32,169 bases of DNA from a virus: positions 1 to 32,169 of IMG/VR virus record IMGVR_UViG_3300045988_177309. One strand, given 5' to 3'. The position numbers and the translations under genes are program-made. Shown here in pieces: positions 13,600 through 20,525 of this stretch; positions within the stretch are counted from its first letter, which is position 1, and each line of letters begins with the position of its first letter. The notes below the pieces were generated by a model. That model did no database searches, was not told the origin of the DNA, and worked only from the letters and a program-made list of their open reading frames with translations.

Positions 13600-13749
13600 T
13601 TATCCCCCACAAACTGCCGCCAGTAGAATATATAAGAGGTATAAACAACTTGCGCCGCATATGGCTTGTGTTGCGCGTATTGCGAACCATGCGACTGAAC
13701 GCGGGCGAACCTTGAATTTTTTGGTTACAATGTAATCATCATCAAACAT
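13600..13749 (-). CDS. small hydrophobic protein (49 aa)
   Basis: RBS AAGGGAGGAAGAAACAATG. ORF MFDDDYIVTKKFKVRPRSVAWFAIRATQAICGASCLYLLYILLAAVCGG. Confidence 0.4.
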   Translation of the reverse strand: MFDDDYIVTKKFKVRPRSVAWFAIRATQAICGASCLYLLYILLAAVCGG

Positions 13750-13935
13750 TGTTTCTTCCTCCCTTTTGTTTATACCTTATTATACTATTTATTTTATTAT
13801 TTGTCAATAGATATTTTTACAAAAAGATTGTCGAGTTTTTAACAAAGTTTGTCGCTTTAACACGTTAAAGCATTATCACTTTAATGCGCTAAAGTGACGC
13901 TCTAAAAAATAAAAAAAACTTTTTCAAAAAAAGTG

Positions 13936-13964
13936 TTGACAGATTTTAAGTGTTGTGCTATACT
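13936..13964 (+). promoter_or_regulatory. perfect consensus promoter TTGACA-17-TATACT
   Basis: TTGACA 13936-41, TATACT 13959-64. Confidence 0.75.
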
Positions 13965-13970
13965 ATAATT

Positions 13971-14123
13971 GTTCCAAGGGGAGCGCGGTTAGCAGACACC
14001 GTGCAGGGGTTCAGGTAGTAAGTCCCCAAAAGGGCAGTAAAGCCAAGCGAATCGCGTCACAAGGAATCAGTAAGTCGCTCCCAAAGAACAAAAAAGTTGC
14101 TAAATTTTAGCAACTTTTTTTTT
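13971..14123 (+). ncRNA. short structured RNA (about 120-150 nt) between a consensus promoter and an intrinsic terminator; weak resemblance to the domain IV / helix 8 region of small SRP (4.5S) RNA
   Basis: No ORF. Terminal helix GGGAGCG...CGCUCCC. Internal CAGGGGUUCAGGUAGUAAGUCC...GGGCAGUAAAGCCAAG. Terminator gttgctaa-atttt-agcaac + T9 at 14096-14123. Confidence 0.55.
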
Positions 14124-14134
14124 ACACAAAGGTA

Positions 14135-14163
14135 TTGACAAGCTTGCGCAAGTGTGGTATACT
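14135..14163 (+). promoter_or_regulatory. perfect consensus promoter TTGACA-17-TATACT
   Basis: TTGACA 14135-40, TATACT 14158-63. Confidence 0.75.
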
Positions 14164-14272
14164 TGAATGGGATGCTGCTGTCAACAAGACTGACTATTTA
14201 TTAACAATCTCAGTTTCCGCGGCGGAAACCTGTTTCCCAACAGGAAATAGAAAAGATAAGTTAATTTTTTAA
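14164..14272 (+). ncRNA. second short structured RNA (about 105 nt)
   Basis: Two hairpins (gtttccgc-g-gcggaaac; cctgtt-tccca-acagg) followed by a T6 run at 14265-70. No ORF longer than 8 codons. Confidence 0.45.
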
Positions 14273-14398
14273 CAAAGTAAAACTTTTTCGTAACATTTTG
14301 GACTTGTTAAAAAATTAACAATATTTGCCCAATTTTAGGATTGATAATATTTTAACAAAGTTGTCCAAAGTTTGTTAAAAATTTACCACAATAAACTC

Positions 14399-14438
14399 TT
14401 GACATAAGCTCGGTGCGTGTCAACCGCACACGCACCGC
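14399..14438 (+). repeat. copy 2 of repeated element: TTGACA-TAAGCTC-[hairpin ggtgcgtgt-caaccgc-acacgcacc]-GC
   Basis: See 12594-12634. Preceded by the shared block taggattgataat. Confidence 0.6.
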
Positions 14439-15039
14439 TGAATAATATAACTGTATCAACCTCTTTATATAATAATAGCACAGCTTAATAAGTCTCTAAG
14501 CTGTGCTACAGTAACAGTGCAGTATCTACCAAGGAGAGTGTTGCCGTGGCGGCATTGAGCATGTACACAACGTTATATTATTAATGCTCAGTATGTCGAG
14601 CTAAAAGGCTGTTCGCGCAACCTTATTCGCTTGAAGAAAGGAAGTGGAAAATGAATAATCATTAAAAAAATAATTTTCATTTTTTATTTTGTCTGTTGGA
14701 GTAAAACCAAGAGAGAAAGATATTGGAAGAAAAAGCTCTCTTAATTTATATTAGACAGAGCAGACTATATTAAGCAGTATGTTGCTGCATTACTTAATGT
14801 TAGAACCGCAGAAGAGAGAGTAGCTTTGTTATTGCGGCAAGCACAATACTTATAATACGCTCTACTTGTTTTAACAAAAGTCTTCCCCTTATGCTCCTTC
14901 TACATCAACGTTTATATTAGTTATTATGATTGAATGTTAATTAAATAAAGTTAAGTTATTTAATTGTATGCAAGTCTATAGACAAGCTTTGTATGTATTG
15001 TGACACTTGCTACGTCGTGTCACACCAGAAAGGAGGTTA

Positions 15040-15340
15040 AGAAAAAAAAACAAAATAATTTTTCTTTTTACATTATAACGAAGCAATAAAAAACGTTATA
15101 AAATTAATATTAATATTTAATTTATATTTATTATATTTAATTTAATACATTAAAAAGAAATAAATTACTAAAAGAAAATCAAATATTAATTTAAGAAAAG
15201 AATTTAGTTTATACAAAAAAAGAATACATTAAATAATATTTCCTTAATAGATTAATTATATTATACAGTATTTTTTTAATTTTGTCAAATTTTTTATATT
15301 TCTTTTATTCTTATTTGCTGTTGGTGAGTTTGCTGGCAAG
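15040..15340. other. roughly 300-bp extremely AT-rich tract (candidate DNA-unwinding/origin or packaging element)
   Basis: More than 85% A+T by eye, no ORF, sits between structured GC-richer segments. Confidence 0.4.
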
Positions 15341-15651
15341 TGCCGCAAGCACAAGAGTTTCAGGATGTGATTTGAGTTAAATAAGCCGCGGCGGAAGAAA
15401 AGATTTTTCTCTGTTGGCCTATTTTGATTGAAATCAAGGCCGTTAACGATGACTAGGATTATTCTAAGTGGGGGCTGGGGTTGGAGGGTCGCGCGTTCCT
15501 CAGATAAAAAGTCCGTAAGGTTCATGAATGTTTATCTGGTAAAAACTAAAAGAACAAAAGGGGGGTAGTATTTCGGGAAAAAATTTTTTTTGATTTAATA
15601 AAAACGTTTTGCCTGGACAATCTTCTGTCCCCAAGTATTTTTATTTTCAAA

Positions 15652-15798
15652 TTACGATGATTCTTTTTTCTTCTTGGGTCGACCTCTCTTTGGTTTTTCT
15701 CCCCACATAAATTCATATACTCCACTGGTTGCCGCCATAGTGGCCTTTCTCTTCATGTTTGCAGCATAGCTGCCCAAAATTCCACGAGGTTTTCTCAT
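15652..15798 (-). CDS. small basic protein with AT-hook-like motif (KRGRPKKKK), 48 aa
   Basis: ORF MRKPRGILGSYAANMKRKATMAATSGVYEFMWGEKPKRGRPKKKKESS. Upstream hairpin ttgttgaaaag-taaaa-cttttcaacaa. No obvious SD. Confidence 0.3.
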   Translation of the reverse strand: MRKPRGILGSYAANMKRKATMAATSGVYEFMWGEKPKRGRPKKKKESS

Positions 15799-15905
15799 AA
15801 AAAATATTGTTGAAAAGTTTTACTTTTCAACAAATCTCCTTTCTTATTTTTTATATATAAATTATATACTATTTTTAAAATTTTATCAATTTTTACAATT
15901 TTTAC

Positions 15906-15934
15906 TTGACATTGCGCTTTTTTCATGCTATAAT
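15906..15934 (+). promoter_or_regulatory. perfect consensus promoter TTGACA-17-TATAAT heading the recoded structural operon
   Basis: TTGACA 15906-11, TATAAT 15929-34. Leader has two hairpins, then RBS AAAGGAGG. Confidence 0.75.
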
Positions 15935-16000
15935 AAAGTAAGACTTAGAGTAAAGTCTAAAATTTCGGAGCGAGGCTCCGAAAGGAGGTTCTAAAAAACT

Positions 16001-17075
16001 TTTGATAAAATTAGATTATTCTTTAGAAACTCCAGAAGAAAGAGTACAATTAGTAGAGCAAATTTTGGCTGAATAGCCTAATCCTCCTCAAAAATACATA
16101 GAAATTTTAACTGATTATCTAGTTATGTGCATGGAGCGTCAAGAACGCCGTGAGCGCAAAATATTAACTGAGAATCGTTTGGCGACAGTTAATAAACGTG
16201 AAACCTCTTTTGAAGGTCTTGTATCACAACTAGAAAGTGGCGAAGATGGAATCTATAATCTCATTCATGAAAATAAGAACCAAATATTTAAACCAAAAGT
16301 AAGAATAACAAAAAAAGACATTGAAGAAATACCCGAACTCCAACAAATAAGAGATTCCATTGAATTTTGGGAAAAAAAGGCAAAAACCGCACAAGGTCGC
16401 GAAGCATTTATTATACGAAAAACAATTATTGAATTGCGCAAAGATCAATACCTTGTGAAAGACTCTTTCCGATAGCCCATTCAAGCAAGTTCAACCGCGC
16501 ATTCACGTGGTATCTATAAACTTACTTATGATGATAAAACTTGCAATTTTGATGAAGAAGGATATCCAATTCCTTCTGGTCTCTCTCTTTTGGATCCAAA
16601 CATTTGTTCGACAATCTTATGTTTATATTCTAAATTAAAACAAGATGGTTATAGTGAATTCATTGGTGATTTATACTATCTTATGGAAGATTTTGATAAA
16701 ATTTCTATTATTGCGCTTGCGCCTTATCCTATTTATCAAAAATTAGTATTATATAAAATAGATGGCCGACAAAACGCTGAAATACAAAATTTATTACAAA
16801 CAGAATTTGGTATTACTCATAGTCTTGAATACCTTTCGAGTCTTTGGCGTAATAAAATTCCTAAATTAATAGCCAGTGCCGCAGAAGATCAATATCTTGA
16901 ATGGTATTACCTTAATGCTGAAAAAGGCAAATATAAAAGATGTAGCTGCTGTGGACAAATTAAATTAGCTCATAATAAATATTTTTCTAAAAATAAAACT
17001 AGCAAAGATGGTTATTACAGCATTTGTAAAAAATGTCGCAATGCTAAAAGTAAAAAAAGAAAAAGGAAGAAATAA
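16001..17075 (+). CDS. hypothetical protein with C-terminal Zn-ribbon (CSCCGQ...CKKC) and basic tail; 1 in-frame TAG
   Basis: Track ORFs 16125..16475 and 16590..17075 share a frame through the TAG at 16473. The frame stays open upstream to a TTG at about 16001, 11 nt after AAAGGAGG. The start is uncertain and may be 16125. Confidence 0.5.
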
Positions 17076-17078
17076 TTT

Positions 17079-18266
17079 ATGAGCGAGTTACATTATTGTA
17101 AAAAATGTAATCGAACCATGAATGGGGAACAATTTTATTCTTCTAACAATTTAGAAAAATACCCTGATAATGGTAAATTTGATATTTGCAAGAAATGTAT
17201 GACTATGCATGTAGATAATTGGGATCCAAACACTTACCTTTGGATCCTAGAAGAAGCTGACGTGCCTTATGTTCCCGATGAATGGAATAAATTGATGGCA
17301 AAGTATGCCAATAATCCAGAAAAATTAACTGGTATGACTATTCTAGGGCGTTATCTCTCTAAAATGAAACTTAAACAATTTAGAGATTATCGATGGAAAG
17401 ATACCGCTTTCTTGCAAGAATTGACACAAAGTAAAATTGAGCAAACAATGAAACGCTCCGGTTATGATGCTTAGCAAATTGCCGAAGCTATTAATAAGGT
17501 TACTTTTACTTTTGATGAACATTATGAATAGCCTCCAATTCCTGCTTCGAATGAATGTAGTGAATCTGAAGATTATTTTGACCAATAGAATGATATTTCT
17601 ATTCCAGAAGAAACGTTTGATTTAACCGACGAAGAAAAATTAATGTTGCGTCTTAAATGGGGAAAAACTTATAAACCAGAAGAATGGATTAAACTTGAAC
17701 AATTATATAATGAATTTCTTTAGTCTTATGATATTCAAAGCGCAGGACATATTGATACTCTTAAATTGATATGCAAAACCTCTCTTAAAGCCAATTAGTT
17801 AATCGATATTGGAGATGTAGAAGGTTTTCAAAAAATGAGCCGGGTGTATGATAATTTAATGAAGAGCGGTAAGTTTACTGCTGCTCAAAACAAAGCCGAA
17901 TCTGGGGAATATGTAAATTCAATTTCTGAACTTGTTACTTTATGTGAATAGCAAGGTTTTATTCCTCGTTATTATGTATCTACACCGCAAGATAAAGTTG
18001 ATGAAACTTTATAGGATACTAAAAATTATGTGCGGACTTTAGTTACCGAAGAAATGAACTTAGGTAATTTAATTGAATCTTCAATACGCACAATGAATTA
18101 TGAAGAAAATAAAGAAGAAGATGAAGATATCGAAGATGAAATAATGGAAGATGTAGTTCCTGAAATTACTGATGAAGACTTCATGGAGCAAGAGGAATTT
18201 CTTGAGTCTGAACAAGAGAAAGATGCGCGATTGACTGAAGAATTGGCCTTGGGCAAAAATAATTAA
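17079..18266 (+). CDS. hypothetical protein (N-terminal CxxC...CxxC, acidic C-terminus); 7 in-frame TAGs
   Basis: Track ORFs 17079..17474 and 18030..18266 share a frame. The frame stays open through TAGs at about 17473, 17528, 17585, 17720, 17798, 17949 and 18010, with no TAA or TGA. TAA at 18264-66. Confidence 0.6.
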
Positions 18267-18937
18267 TGGCATTACAAGAACTTTTAAATTTATAGTCTCG
18301 ATACAATAAATTAGGGCTTTCTGAAGAGCGCGTAACTGCAATTCTTCCAGTAGTGCGTGAATATGTAGCATTCTGGCGTGAATACCCAGATATGTTTATT
18401 GATTTCCTTTTGGAAGCGGGGAACCCTTAGAATTTTCATCTTTATTTTTATCAACGAGTATTTTTACGTGCGGCAATGCGGCATAAATATGTGTATGCAG
18501 TTTACCCGCGCGCCTATTCAAAATCGTTTCTTGCAATTATGATTTTAATGATACGTTGCATTCTCTATCCCAAGTGTAAACTTTTCGTTACTTCGGGTGG
18601 TAAAGAATAGGCGGCTGGTATCATAAAGGAAAAAGTACAAGAAATATGTAATCTTATTCCAGCAATGGATAAAGAAATAGATTATCGACCTGGTCAAACT
18701 AGATTTATTAAAGACCAAACTACAATAGTATTTAAAAATGGCTCTTATTTTGATAATATTGCAGCGCGTGAAACCTCTCGTGGTAAACGTCGTCATGGTG
18801 GAGTCATAGAAGAATGTGTTGGAGTCGATGGCGATATACTGTCCCAAGTTATTATTCCCACAATGAACATTTCACGTATGTGTATGGATGGAACAACATA
18901 GCCTGAAGAAACGCTCAATAAGTCCCAAATTTATGTT
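18266..18937 (+). CDS. terL: terminase large subunit, exon 1 (ATPase domain)
   Basis: ATG overlaps the upstream TAA (TAATG). ...AVYPRAYSKSFLAIM... (deviant Walker A) ...ETLNKSQIYV coupling motif. In-frame TAGs. The frame then degenerates and hits TAA at 19007, so the exon must end near 18937. Confidence 0.65.
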
Positions 18938-19530
18938 AATTTTTTGGTCATTTTACGTTACTTAAATGTATTAATTTTAAAGAGAAAAAAGCCCATTCTA
19001 CCATTATAAAATCTAAAAGAAAGCTTACGCAAGAACAAGTTTTTATGATTTATGTAAATAATGAATAGAATATTATTCCAAAAACATATCTTTGTAATAT
19101 GTTTAATATCACTAGTAATACAATTTATACTATTTTAAATCAAAAATCTTATCAAGATTATTGGCAAGATTATCAAAAATTAACGAATGATCAAAAAGAA
19201 CAATTAGCATCATTGTTGCGAAAGCAACAACAGCAAACCCCTTGAATTGCTGGGAAGCCCTAAAAAATAGGGTAATCAGCAGCCAAGCCTTGAATAAAGG
19301 AAGGTTCAACGACTATCTCAATATGAGAGTAGAGGCAAGCGTCTCGAAGTGGGGGGCCCTTAGCAGGTAAAGCTGAAGGTGAAGATATAGTCTTTTCTAT
19401 ATAGTAATATATAGCAGTTCATAAGAGAACGTATTTAATTTAGCGAATTAAATAGAAAAATAAAGAACAACTGCGGGATACAAAAACACATATGCTTATG
19501 ATAAACTTATTTAGTTGTTAGTTTGGTAGA
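18938..19530 (+). mobile_element. group I (IA-like) self-splicing intron interrupting terL; boundaries approximate
   Basis: P GAATTGCTGGGAAGC 19245-59. P5 hairpin ccct-aaaaaat-aggg. Q AATCAGCAGCC 19274-84. P6 ccttgaataaaagg. R GTTCAACGACTA 19304-15. P8 tctca-ata-tgaga. S AAGATATAGTC 19382-92 (GACUA:UAGUC P7). P9 ctatata-gtaa-tatatag. All in canonical order. Confidence 0.7.
19045..19245 (+). CDS. intron-internal ORF, HTH-like (possible degenerate homing-endonuclease DNA-binding module); contains 1 in-frame TAG
   Basis: Frame differs from both exons. MIYVNNE(Q)NIIPKTYLCNMFNITSNTIYTILNQKSY... resembles a NUMOD/HTH motif. TGA stop at 19243-45. Confidence 0.25.
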
Positions 19531-20525
19531 TCGTAAGACCAGAACGTTCAATTATTCTCGGAGGTACTTACCGCATCCCAGTTCTTATGAAGCTTCTGGA
19601 TAAAAGCTTTGTTCAAGACTTGCGTATGGATGGTACCTTTAATGAAAGTGCATTTTAGCGAGAATATGAGTCGAAATGGTCTGGCACAGTAGAGGATGCA
19701 TTCTTTAATCCAGAAGTTTTTGAACGTAATCGCATTCTTAATCAGCCAGAATATGAACTTTCTGGACGTGCATCAAAACAATCTTATTATGTGCTTTCTG
19801 TGGATGTTGGTCGCAAACAATGCGACACTGTTGTTTGCGTTTTTAATGTCATTCCATAGTAGCAAGGTACATCAATAAAAAAATTGGTTAACATATTTGT
19901 ATTAACTGATGAACATTTTGAAGATCAAGCAATAAGATTAAAGCAATTATATTATAAATTTAAAGCACGTCGTATTGTAATTGATGCGAATGGATTAGGT
20001 ATTGGACTTGTAGATTATATGATAAAAACTCAAGTTAACCCTGAAACAAATGAAACTTATTATGATTTTGGTGTTTATAATGATGAAGATAATTATTACA
20101 AAAAATATAGAACCATTTTCACAGAACAAGATGCAATGTATTTAATTAAAGCTAATGCGCCATTAAATACTGATGCTCATGCGAATGCACAATCTTAGCT
20201 ATCTTCTGGAAAAGTAAAATTTTTAATTGATGTTCAAACAGCCAAAGCGAAATTGCTTAATACAAAAGTTGGCCAAAATATGAGTCCTGAACAAAGGACA
20301 GATTATTTAAAACCATTTAATTACACTTCCATATTAAAAGAAGAAATGTTGAATCTTCGTGAAGAAAATGAAGGTATTAATATTAATTTAAAACAAATAA
20401 ATCGCGGAATACGAAAAGACAAATTTTCTGCGTTTGAATATGGGTTATATTATATTAAACATGAAGAAGATGACAAGAAAAAACGTAAAAGATTTAATGC
20501 AAAAGATTGGGCTTTTTTTAATTAA
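19530..20525 (+). CDS. terL: terminase large subunit, exon 2 (linker + RNaseH-like nuclease domain)
   Basis: ...FQREYESKWSGTVEDAFFNP... then ...YYVLSVDVGRKQCDTVVCVFN... and IVIDANGLGIGLVDYM. In-frame TAGs at about 19656, 19857-62 (double) and 20196. Track ORFs 19884.. and 20253..20525 share the frame. TAA at 20523-25. Confidence 0.7.

What the first reader, a model, noticed from the sequence alone, without database searches (positions are those of the whole stretch)
13936..14123. Stand-alone small RNA gene with perfect consensus promoter and intrinsic terminator at the strand-switch/code-switch boundary
TTGACA-17-TATACT is followed 6 nt later by a roughly 120-nt transcript. It has a long terminal helix (GGGAGCG/CGCUCCC), several internal hairpins and a gttgctaa/ttagcaac + T9 terminator, and no ORF. 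The segment CAGGGGUUCAGGUAGUAAGUCC...GGGCAGUAAAGCCAAG loosely resembles the helix-8 region of 4.5S/SRP RNA (CAGGUCAGGUCC-GGAA-GGAAGCAGCCAAGG). It is not a cloverleaf, so I do not think it is the missing suppressor tRNA. A strongly expressed phage sRNA sitting exactly where the translation code changes is worth characterising.
Basis: partly seen in the sequence, partly recalled or inferred. Interest (0 to 1): 0.7.

Follow-up and report, generated by a model that had tools for sequence, protein, structure and literature searches.

The report
Orphan small RNA gene in a recoded phage
This is very likely a real, self-contained gene for a ~150-nt structured non-coding RNA of a previously undescribed family, carried by a narrow group of gut phages that read TAG as an amino acid; it is not an SRP RNA or tRNA, shows no link to the code change, and its function is unknown.

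Summary
A near-consensus promoter (TTGACA-17-TGcTATACT, 13936-13964) and a strong intrinsic terminator (14096-14123) bracket about 120 nt of 52% G+C sequence in a 35% G+C phage. The sequence has no translatable ORF.

Eight homologous copies were found in related 115-176 kb phage contigs. Across seven aligned copies both promoter hexamers are invariant, 13 of 17 spacer columns vary, and 19 of 121 RNA columns vary.

- a closing helix (P1/P2);
- a 7-bp hairpin (P3);
- one long irregular hairpin (P4) with invariant AGUAA-containing internal loops;
- an invariant 19-nt stretch predicted to be unpaired.

Rfam (4227 families, including SRP, tRNA, tmRNA, 6S and pRNA) gives nothing, even at E<=10, and ARAGORN finds no tRNA.

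More distant TAG-recoded relatives lack the RNA, including the complete phAss-1 genome. It is therefore an accessory cassette, not part of the recoding machinery.

The function is unresolved. My best guess is an early, abundant, trans-acting RNA that binds a protein or a host RNA. It is a new family of a known kind (phage sRNA), of moderate interest.

The parts
13936..13941 (+). -35 hexamer TTGACA
   Evidence: Invariant in 7 aligned homologues.
13956..13964 (+). Extended -10, TGcTATACT. The spacer to the -35 is 17 nt.
   Evidence: The hexamer is invariant while 13 of 17 spacer columns vary.
13970..13974 (+). P1 5' strand, UGUUC. The transcript probably starts at 13970-13972.
   Evidence: Pairs with 14086-14090 in the minimum-energy fold of all eight homologues folded and in the duplex calculation for all nine. 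One-sided C->U change giving G-U. The start site is inferred from the distance to the -10.
13978..13985 (+). P2 5' strand, (G)GGAGCG
   Evidence: Pairs with 14076-14082. Four haplotypes of the two strands all keep the helix, including G-C / G-U / A-U at one pair and a compensated 1-nt indel.
13983..14004 (+). P3 hairpin: GCGCGGU / ACCGUGC around an 8-nt loop, YAGYAGAC
   Evidence: The stem is invariant and both variable columns fall in the loop. Its lower three pairs compete with the inner part of P2, and this is unresolved.
14008..14053 (+). P4, a long irregular hairpin. Base helix GGUUC/GAAUC, apical stem CYC/GRG with loop CAAAA (14027-14031), and internal loops made of AGUAAG (14017-14022) opposite AGUAAA (14036-14041).
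   Evidence: 100% of cells paired, one double compensatory pair (14025/14033, C-G <-> U-A) and four one-sided changes. The energy is stable at -18 to -23 kcal/mol in all nine copies, whereas the alternative model falls to -11 to -13 in four.
14054..14075 (+). 3' linker predicted to be unpaired. It contains most of the invariant 19-nt stretch CAAGGAAUCAGUAAGUCGC (14060-14078, running into the P2 3' strand), which holds a third AGUAAG copy at 14069-14074.
   Evidence: columns 79-97 of A4 are invariant in all copies, while columns 74, 76 and 78 just upstream vary. AGTAAGTC occurs twice in the window, both times here.
14076..14090 (+). 3' strands of P2 (CGCUCCC) and P1 (GAACA)
14083..14095 (+). 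A-rich tract AAAGAACAAAAAA. It can be read as four consecutive A-R-N triplets.
   Evidence: Read; conserved as AAAGAAYAAAAAA. Its role (Hfq-type site, or the U-tract of the terminator read on the opposite strand) is inferred.
14096..14123 (+). Intrinsic terminator: GTTGCTAA-AUU-TTAGCAAC followed by T9
   Evidence: The stem is invariant and the loop varies among homologues.

Best explanation
The interval 13936-14123 is an independent gene for a small, stable, structured non-coding RNA of a family not yet catalogued. The RNA is about 150 nt with its terminator, and the structured body is about 120 nt.

Shown:
- A near-consensus promoter of the host sigma-A type (sigma-70 class) and a strong terminator bracket the sequence.
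- The sequence is G+C-rich and not translatable.
- Its promoter hexamers and body are conserved while the promoter spacer has diverged.
- Its variation fits one fold: closing helix P1/P2, hairpin P3, long hairpin P4, then a 3' linker predicted to be unpaired.

Inferred:
- Host RNA polymerase transcribes it at high level from the start of infection. It sits among the many promoter / small gene / terminator cassettes of the early region.
- It acts in trans.
- I favour a protein-binding (scaffold or decoy) mode. The ends are sealed in a helix, as in stable RNP RNAs. The nucleotides that never vary are the purine-rich internal loops (AGUAAG opposite AGUAAA) and a third AGUAAG in the linker, while the Watson-Crick pairs around them change with compensation.
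- A base-pairing mode through the invariant 19-nt linker is the close second.

The RNA is an accessory cassette of one narrow phage lineage and not a component of the TAG-to-Gln recoding system.
For: - Promoter and terminator.
- No Rfam family and no tRNA or tmRNA.
- Eight homologues: L059, L067, L064, L058, L002, L068, L069, L071.
- Hexamers vary at 0 of 12 columns, the spacer at 13 of 17, the RNA body at 19 of 121, p = 7.6e-7.
- The RNA is the best-conserved stretch of the 2.2-kb region, 0.91-0.97 mean pairwise identity against 0.70-0.95 elsewhere.
- G+C peak of 52%.
- The structural model is 100% paired, with one double compensatory pair and four one-sided changes. In the A4 core columns, every variable column either lies in a loop or linker or keeps its pair.
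- The closing helix is kept through four haplotypes, including a compensated indel.
- G-U pairs in the model and the promoter/terminator orientation fix the strand.
- Not coding.
- Absent from TAG-recoded relatives.
Against: - There are no expression data.
- All nine copies are close relatives (77-96% identity across the region), so covariation support is thin: two double-compensatory pairs in the whole molecule.
- The shuffle control is only 8 of 500, a level that relatedness alone can produce.
- Fold z-scores are weak in the second sequence group (-0.9 to -1.2), and the reverse strand folds about as well by energy alone.
- No protein partner or target was identified.
- The protein-binding preference rests on the pattern of conservation, not on any test.
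Confidence: 0.5

Rival explanations
1. It is a classical base-pairing riboregulator of the Hfq type. The invariant single-stranded CAAGGAAUCAGUAAGUCGC stretch is a seed that pairs with host mRNAs, or with phage mRNAs outside the window. The A-R-N tract and the U9 tail bind Hfq.
For: It has its own promoter and a Rho-independent terminator with a long U tail. The 19 nt predicted to be unpaired are invariant while the linker just upstream varies. Four A-R-N triplets lie directly before the terminator. Phage sRNAs of this kind are known, for example lambda LPR1/PreS (bioRxiv 10.1101/2024.10.31.621285).
Against: The complement of a 17-nt core of the seed (14060-14076) has no match in the 32-kb window with <=3 mismatches. 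The best RNAduplex hits for the tail, the P3 loop and the top of P4 are no better than those for shuffled queries. Sealed 5'/3' ends and a largely double-stranded body are atypical for seed-type sRNAs. Host sequence could not be searched.
Confidence: 0.3
2. It is a regulator tied to the genetic-code switch. For example, it could control the translation or timing of the TAG-containing sigma-factor gene, modulate release factor 1, or modulate suppression.
For: It lies in the control region between the standard-code early genes on the - strand and the TAG-recoded block on the + strand. The first gene of that block is a sigma-factor homologue with two in-frame TAGs. The loop position 14016 is U (UAG) in one group and C (CAG) in the other.
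Against: Relatives that also carry in-frame TAG in the same sigma gene have no copy within 10 kb (L004). The complete TAG-to-Gln phage phAss-1 has none anywhere. The UAG is not conserved, and the U/C change is fully explained by a U-G <-> C-G pair with 14042. There is no significant complementarity to the sigma leader or to anything else in the window. The gene is 1.9 kb from the first recoded gene, with other units in between.
Confidence: 0.04
3. It is not an RNA gene. The interval would then be a decayed early small-protein cassette, or a DNA-level site (operator, origin or packaging element), that happens to lie between a promoter and a terminator.
For: The neighbourhood is full of promoter / small ORF / terminator cassettes. 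One reading frame is open across the body in all copies. The promoter plus the first ~15 transcribed nt is duplicated in inverted orientation in L002 and L059. TTTAACAAAG repeats and a stretch of 6-12% G+C lie nearby.
Against: The open frame has no start codon downstream of the start site and no RBS. Indels break it, and it changes mostly non-synonymously. The variable columns show no 3-nt periodicity (6, 4 and 5 by position modulo 3, counted from A4). A decaying cassette would not be the best-conserved segment of the region, nor would it keep compensatory pairs.
Confidence: 0.08
4. It is a cis-acting leader (riboswitch or attenuator) that controls read-through into downstream genes.
For: Promoter, ~100-nt structured G+C-rich element and intrinsic terminator is the standard riboswitch layout in Firmicutes.
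Against: The terminator hairpin does not overlap or compete with the structured body. It is followed after 11 nt by a separate consensus promoter at 14135-14163. No conserved ORF follows, and what lies downstream differs between homologues: there are insertions in L002 and L058. No riboswitch family matches.
Confidence: 0.03
5. It is a divergent or mimic SRP RNA, tRNA-like RNA, 6S RNA or phi29-type packaging RNA.
For: The closing helix plus a three-way junction is superficially like pRNA or a tRNA-like RNA.
Against: None of these families matches at E<=10. ARAGORN finds nothing. There is no GNRA apex, no CUA anticodon on the + strand and no complementary loop pair for pRNA-type oligomerisation (read). 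The phage uses a terminase (TerL, interrupted by a group I intron) rather than a pRNA motor.
Confidence: 0.02

Closest known systems
Stand-alone phage-encoded sRNAs, e.g. lambda LPR1/PreS (bioRxiv 10.1101/2024.10.31.621285), and, from my own knowledge, lambda OOP and the prophage sRNAs DicF and IsrK
   Same: A short non-coding transcript with its own promoter and a Rho-independent terminator, encoded in a phage regulatory or early region and presumed to act in trans on host or phage gene expression.
   Different: There is no sequence or Rfam-level similarity. The body is much more structured: sealed ends, a long irregular hairpin and 52% G+C. No target or antisense partner was found in the window. 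The host is a Clostridia-type Firmicute and the phage is a 115-176 kb TAG-recoded virus.
Protein-sequestering or scaffold RNAs (CsrB/RsmZ-type sponges, 6S RNA, Y RNAs, phi29 pRNA; from my own knowledge)
   Same: The 5' and 3' ends are closed in a helix. A short motif recurs (AGUAAG/AGUAAA, three copies) in internal loops or single-stranded stretches, and it is invariant while the surrounding pairs covary. High expression is presumed.
   Different: It fails every Rfam model for these families. It has only three motif copies, and the motif is not GGA. It has no central bubble (6S), no Ro-binding bulged helix and no complementary loops (pRNA). No partner protein was identified.
Bacterial small SRP (4.5S) RNA, RF00169
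   Same: Similar size (~115 nt), with a long irregular hairpin containing purine-rich internal loops. There are short shared strings (CAGG..., GCAG..., GCCAAG).
   Different: There is no covariance-model match at E<=10. The apex is CAAAA, not GGAA/GNRA. The shared strings sit in a different pairing register. There is an additional hairpin and a multi-branch junction. The RNA is present only in a narrow phage lineage.

Membership tests
Bacterial SRP RNA (RF00169 / RF01854) | Match to the Rfam covariance model | tested here: not met
   Gathering-threshold scan of the whole window, then an E<=10 scan of 13750-14500. No SRP hit, and no hit of any family on the + strand body 13970-14085.
Bacterial SRP RNA (RF00169 / RF01854) | Helix 8 capped by a GNRA tetraloop, with the conserved symmetric and asymmetric loops | tested here: not met
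   The apex of the supported hairpin is the pentaloop CAAAA (CAGAA in L067). The internal loops are AGUAAG/AGUAAA.
tRNA / suppressor tRNA | Cloverleaf detectable by ARAGORN or by Rfam tRNA, with a CUA anticodon for TAG | tested here: not met
   ARAGORN finds 0 genes in the window and in 8 related loci. No RF00005 hit at E<=10. There is no CUA on the + strand of the RNA (read). In the relative phAss-1 the Sup-CTA tRNAs are annotated in the tRNA clusters of the genome; that genome has no copy of this RNA.
tmRNA / 6S RNA / phi29 pRNA / Y RNA | Match to the Rfam covariance model | tested here: not met
   no hit. ARAGORN finds no tmRNA.
Type III antitoxin RNA (ToxI-like) | Tandem direct repeats of ~34-48 nt followed by a terminator and a toxin gene | tested here: not met
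   Tandem Repeats Finder gives 0 arrays at score >=30. The only direct repeat is the 8-mer AGTAAGTC, twice. No ORF follows.
Riboswitch / cis-acting leader | An expression platform that overlaps the aptamer and a regulated ORF in the same transcription unit | tested here: not met
   The terminator is independent of the body. A new consensus promoter starts 11 nt after it. No conserved downstream ORF. No riboswitch family hit.
Stand-alone trans-acting sRNA gene | Own promoter and own intrinsic terminator, both conserved | tested here: met
   hexamers 0 of 12 variable against spacer 13 of 17; the terminator stem is invariant.
Stand-alone trans-acting sRNA gene | No protein-coding capacity | tested here: met
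   there is no start codon or RBS downstream of the start site, indels shift the frame, and changes are mostly non-synonymous.
Stand-alone trans-acting sRNA gene | Conserved secondary structure supported by covariation | tested here: inconclusive
   All variable paired positions keep pairing, and there are two double-compensatory pairs. However, there are only nine close relatives, and the shuffle control is 8 of 500.
Stand-alone trans-acting sRNA gene | A detectable transcript and an identified target or partner | not testable with these tools
   No transcriptome or host genome was available. No target above shuffled background was found within the window.

The most novel reading that the evidence does not exclude
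The RNA is an accessory modulator of the phage's genetic-code switch. It would be an abundant early RNA that tunes when UAG is read as Gln, for example by titrating a translation-termination or RNA-binding factor through its AGUAAG/UAG-like loops, or by acting on the TAG-containing sigma-factor mRNA 1.9 kb downstream. That would set the timing of late-gene expression in this lineage.
Probability: 0.04. Interest if true: 0.9.

Novelty: new member of a known kind. Interest (0 to 1): 0.4.

Why it matters
Large gut phages that recode TAG are uncultured, and their regulation is unknown. A strongly promoted, structured, conserved RNA in their early control region is a concrete and testable candidate for an RNA-level host-takeover or anti-defence factor in Clostridia phages. 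It would also add a new family to the RNA catalogues.

It does not explain the recoding, because recoded relatives do without it. It also shows that the 'missing' suppressor tRNA should be sought elsewhere in the 115-176 kb genome, not in this window.

Tried and rejected
- **Rfam.** A gathering-threshold scan of the whole window found only the group I intron at 19192-19414. E<=10 scans of 13750-14500 and E<=1 scans of 14400-16050 found nothing on the RNA body.
- **ARAGORN.** Nothing in the window or in related loci.
- **BLAST.** The region found no real match in GenBank phages, and the RNA found none in PLSDB plasmids.
- **Single-motif pattern scans of IMG/VR.** Apart from the L002 contig (L038), the matches were chance ones in coding DNA (L025, L028, L039).
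- **More distant homologues.** nhmmer and the covariance model R1 were run on the 23 other sigma-anchored loci (L001, L003-L024); only L002 of that set has a copy. R1 was also run on five loci reached through homologues of the 156-aa early protein and on the whole phAss-1 genome. None were found. L070 and L072 end before the expected position and are uninformative.
- **Targets.** There is no antisense match with <=3 mismatches, and the RNAduplex scans are not above shuffled queries.
Two of its pairs are broken in 3-4 sequences, and its energy collapses in the second sequence group.
- **Mini-ORF GUG-CAG-GGG-UUC-AGG-(UAG/CAG)-UAA.** It has no RBS, and the GUG is buried in P3. The U/C change is explained by base pairing.
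- **A ~53-nt internal duplication or ToxI-like repeats.** Not supported.
- **Strand choice by folding energy.** Uninformative.
- **CsrA sponge.** There are only two GGA motifs, and one is buried in P2.

Full report
**Context**

The 32-kb window (35% G+C) is part of a large tailed phage.
- From about 16.0 kb onward the + strand genes are intact only if TAG is read as sense. Their products contain 0-12 in-frame TAGs each. These genes include a terminase large subunit split by a group I intron at 19192-19414, portal-sized and capsid genes, and others.
- The major capsid protein is 50% identical to that of phAss-1, a 136-kb human-gut phage described as using TAG for Gln. That phage has 36 tRNAs, three of them Sup-CTA, and a predicted Clostridia host.
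- ARAGORN finds no tRNA in this window. By analogy with phAss-1, whose suppressors are annotated in tRNA clusters, the suppressor tRNA should be elsewhere in the genome.
- The - strand genes left of 13750 use the standard code. The last is a 49-aa ORF with a strong RBS at 13600-13749.
- The interval 13760-16000 is a control region with several consensus promoters on both strands, small units and a stretch of 6-12% G+C.

**Checking the observation**

- Promoter: TTGACA (13936-13941), a 17-nt spacer, then TGc-TATACT (13956-13964), 11 of 12 consensus matches plus an extended -10.
- Terminator: stem GTTGCTAA/TTAGCAAC followed by T9 (14096-14123), preceded by A6, so it can terminate in both directions.
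- Terminal helix: GGGAGCG/CGCUCCC, extended outward by UGUUC/GAACA.
- Composition: the body is 52% G+C, the highest peak between 12.5 and 16.5 kb.
- Folding: z = -3.4 without the terminator and -5.3 with it.

**Coding potential**

The ORF listing reports a 51-aa GTG ORF at 13955-14110, but it is not a gene.
- Its GTG is the 'TG' of the extended -10, so it lies upstream of any start site this promoter could use.
- It has no RBS, and the frame has no ATG, GTG or TTG downstream of the start site.
- One-base indels shift the frame in L002, L068, L071 and L058.
- Between the two sequence groups the frame shows 7 amino-acid changes.
- The variable columns show no 3-nt periodicity (6, 4 and 5 by position modulo 3, counted from A4).

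**Homologues**
- GenBank phages and PLSDB plasmids give nothing.
- Anchoring on the downstream sigma-like gene retrieved 24 IMG/VR loci. Only L002 (96% protein identity, 176-kb contig) has the RNA.
- A two-motif DNA pattern found five more copies in metagenome contigs of up to 174 kb (L059, L067, L064, L058, L068). It found one more in a 174.9-kb contig binned into a 'Clostridium sp.' MAG (L069).
- A ninth copy (L071, 171-kb contig) was reached through a homologue of the 156-aa early protein.
- These genomes are 77-96% identical to the window across the region.

**Evidence of constraint**
- In the seven-sequence alignment both promoter hexamers are invariant (0 of 12 columns), 13 of 17 spacer columns vary, and 19 of 121 RNA-body columns vary (Fisher p = 7.6e-7).
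- In a six-genome alignment of the whole control region, the RNA is the best-conserved stretch, at 0.91-0.97 mean pairwise identity against 0.70-0.95 elsewhere.

**Structure**

- The fold consists of P1 (13970-13974 / 14086-14090), P2 (13978-13985 / 14076-14082), a 7-bp hairpin P3 (13983-14004) and one long irregular hairpin P4 (14008-14053).
- On the 97-column core this model is 100% paired. It has one double compensatory pair (14025/14033, C-G <-> U-A) and four one-sided changes. Every other variable column lies in a loop or the linker.
- The model built from several small hairpins has two pairs broken in 3-4 sequences. Its energy falls from about -23 to between -11 and -13 kcal/mol in the second sequence group, whereas the P4 model stays at -18 to -23 in all nine copies.
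- The closing helix survives four different haplotypes of its two strands. At one pair the series is G-C / G-U / A-U, and a G deletion on the 5' strand is matched by a U insertion on the 3' strand.
- Several G-U pairs, together with the promoter and terminator orientation, assign the RNA to the + strand. Folding energy alone does not.

Two caveats apply. The nine copies are close relatives and the shuffle control is only 8 of 500, so the structural support is suggestive, not conclusive. P2 and the base of P3 compete for the same GCG, and the data cannot resolve this.

**Anatomy relevant to function**

The nucleotides that never vary are not the Watson-Crick pairs.
- The two internal-loop strands of P4 are invariant: AGUAAG (14017-14022) opposite AGUAAA (14036-14041). 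They form a quasi-symmetric stretch of purine-purine mismatches around a U-A/A-U step.
- A 19-nt stretch predicted to be unpaired, CAAGGAAUCAGUAAGUCGC (14060-14078), is also invariant and carries a third AGUAAG.
- AGTAAGTC occurs only twice in the window, both times here.
- An A-rich tract (AAAGAAYAAAAAA) precedes the terminator.

**What it is not**
- *Any Rfam family.* None of the 4227 families matches the body, even at E<=10 in a 751-nt search. All weak hits fall on the terminator or elsewhere. That rules out membership of SRP, tRNA, tmRNA, 6S, Y RNA, pRNA and the known riboswitch families. The SRP resemblance is a few short strings in a different pairing register, with a CAAAA apex instead of a GNRA tetraloop.
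- *A ToxI-like repeat array*.
- *A cis-acting leader.* The terminator is independent of the body, a second consensus promoter (14135-14163) begins 11 nt after it, and the downstream content differs between homologues.

**Relation to the code switch**

The first recoded gene (16003-17075) is a sigma-factor homologue (PHROG 5767, E = 2e-48) with two in-frame TAGs. It sits behind its own consensus promoter, which is an interesting arrangement in itself. The sRNA, however, is 1.9 kb away. Several relatives lack it:
- relatives whose sigma gene also carries in-frame stops, the first of them TAG, such as L004;
- a ~190-kb sister lineage in which the whole early-to-sigma interval was fetched;
- the complete phAss-1 genome.

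The U/C difference that makes UAG in one group and CAG in the other is explained by a U-G / C-G pair. The RNA is therefore an accessory cassette of one narrow lineage and not part of the recoding apparatus.

**Mechanism**

I could not identify a target. A 17-nt core of the invariant stretch has no antisense match with <=3 mismatches in the window. RNAduplex scans of the tail, the P3 loop and the top of P4 give best energies inside the range of shuffled queries.

Weighing the anatomy (sealed ends, a rod-like hairpin with invariant purine-rich loops, a motif present three times), I favour an abundant early trans-acting RNA that binds a protein as a scaffold or decoy. A base-pairing sRNA that uses the invariant linker, the A-R-N tract and the U tail is a close second. 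Both modes are inferred, not shown.

**Verdict**

This is very likely a real stand-alone sRNA gene (about 0.85) of a new family, and its function is unresolved. The SRP analogy and the code-switch link are not supported. It is a new member of a known kind (phage-encoded sRNA), of moderate interest.

Noticed in passing
window 19192-19414 (+): A group I intron (Rfam RF00028, 92.7 bits, E = 8e-23) lies between two TAG-recoded ORFs (18263-19009 and 19464-20525) that together look like a terminase large subunit.
   Followed up: partly
window 15906-17075 (+): The first gene of the TAG-recoded block is a sigma-factor homologue (PHROG 5767, E = 2e-48) with a C-terminal zinc-ribbon/HNH-like tail. It has two in-frame TAGs and sits behind a perfect TTGACA-17-TGcTATAAT promoter (15906-15934). 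Making the phage sigma factor would therefore itself require TAG suppression, which could act as a timing gate for late transcription.
   Followed up: partly
window 14135-14275 (+): A second consensus promoter (TTGACA-17-TGgTATACT) begins 11 nt after the sRNA terminator. An ATG lies 4 nt after its -10. It opens a 35-aa ORF (MGCCFRRIG...) that is intact in L059, L064, L068 and L069 but truncated or frameshifted in the window and in L067. The same stretch forms two hairpins (GUUUCCGC/GCGGAAAC and a second at CUGUUUCC-CAAC-AGGAAAUAG). It could be a leaderless mini-gene or a second small RNA.
   Followed up: partly
window 13838, 14268, 14351 (+), 14370 (-), 14870 (+): Three exact copies and two near copies of TTTAACAAAG cluster within 1 kb around the sRNA gene. 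The window has 19 matches with <=1 mismatch against 9.6 expected. Small palindromes lie at 13855-13895. These are possible operator or iteron sites.
   Followed up: no
window 15050-15540: A stretch of 6-12% G+C (15050-15300) abuts a 40-47% G+C block (15300-15540). Both are 0.89-0.95 conserved among relatives and neither has a convincing ORF. This could be a DNA-unwinding element or origin, or another non-coding element. Rfam gives only sub-threshold noise there.
   Followed up: no
L002 6796-6856 (-), L059 9767-9827 (-): An inverted copy of the sRNA promoter plus the first ~15 transcribed nt (…TATAxTATAATTGTTCCAAGG…) drives the divergent early unit. The sRNA 5' end therefore shares a promoter/leader module with early protein cassettes, and the cassette is flanked by variable insertions in different genomes.
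   Followed up: partly
L004 5287-9507 (-): A related phage carries nine near-perfect sigma-70-type promoters with an extended -10, spaced 350-750 nt apart on one strand. Several are followed by hairpins that look like terminators. This is a dense array of early 'host-takeover' cassettes.
   Followed up: no
L069 (JALFQD010000409.1, 174,861 bp): A contig that carries the sRNA and has the size of the related phage contigs is deposited as part of a 'Clostridium sp. SUG910' MAG. It is probably a phage genome binned with its host, which gives a weak host clue.
   Followed up: no
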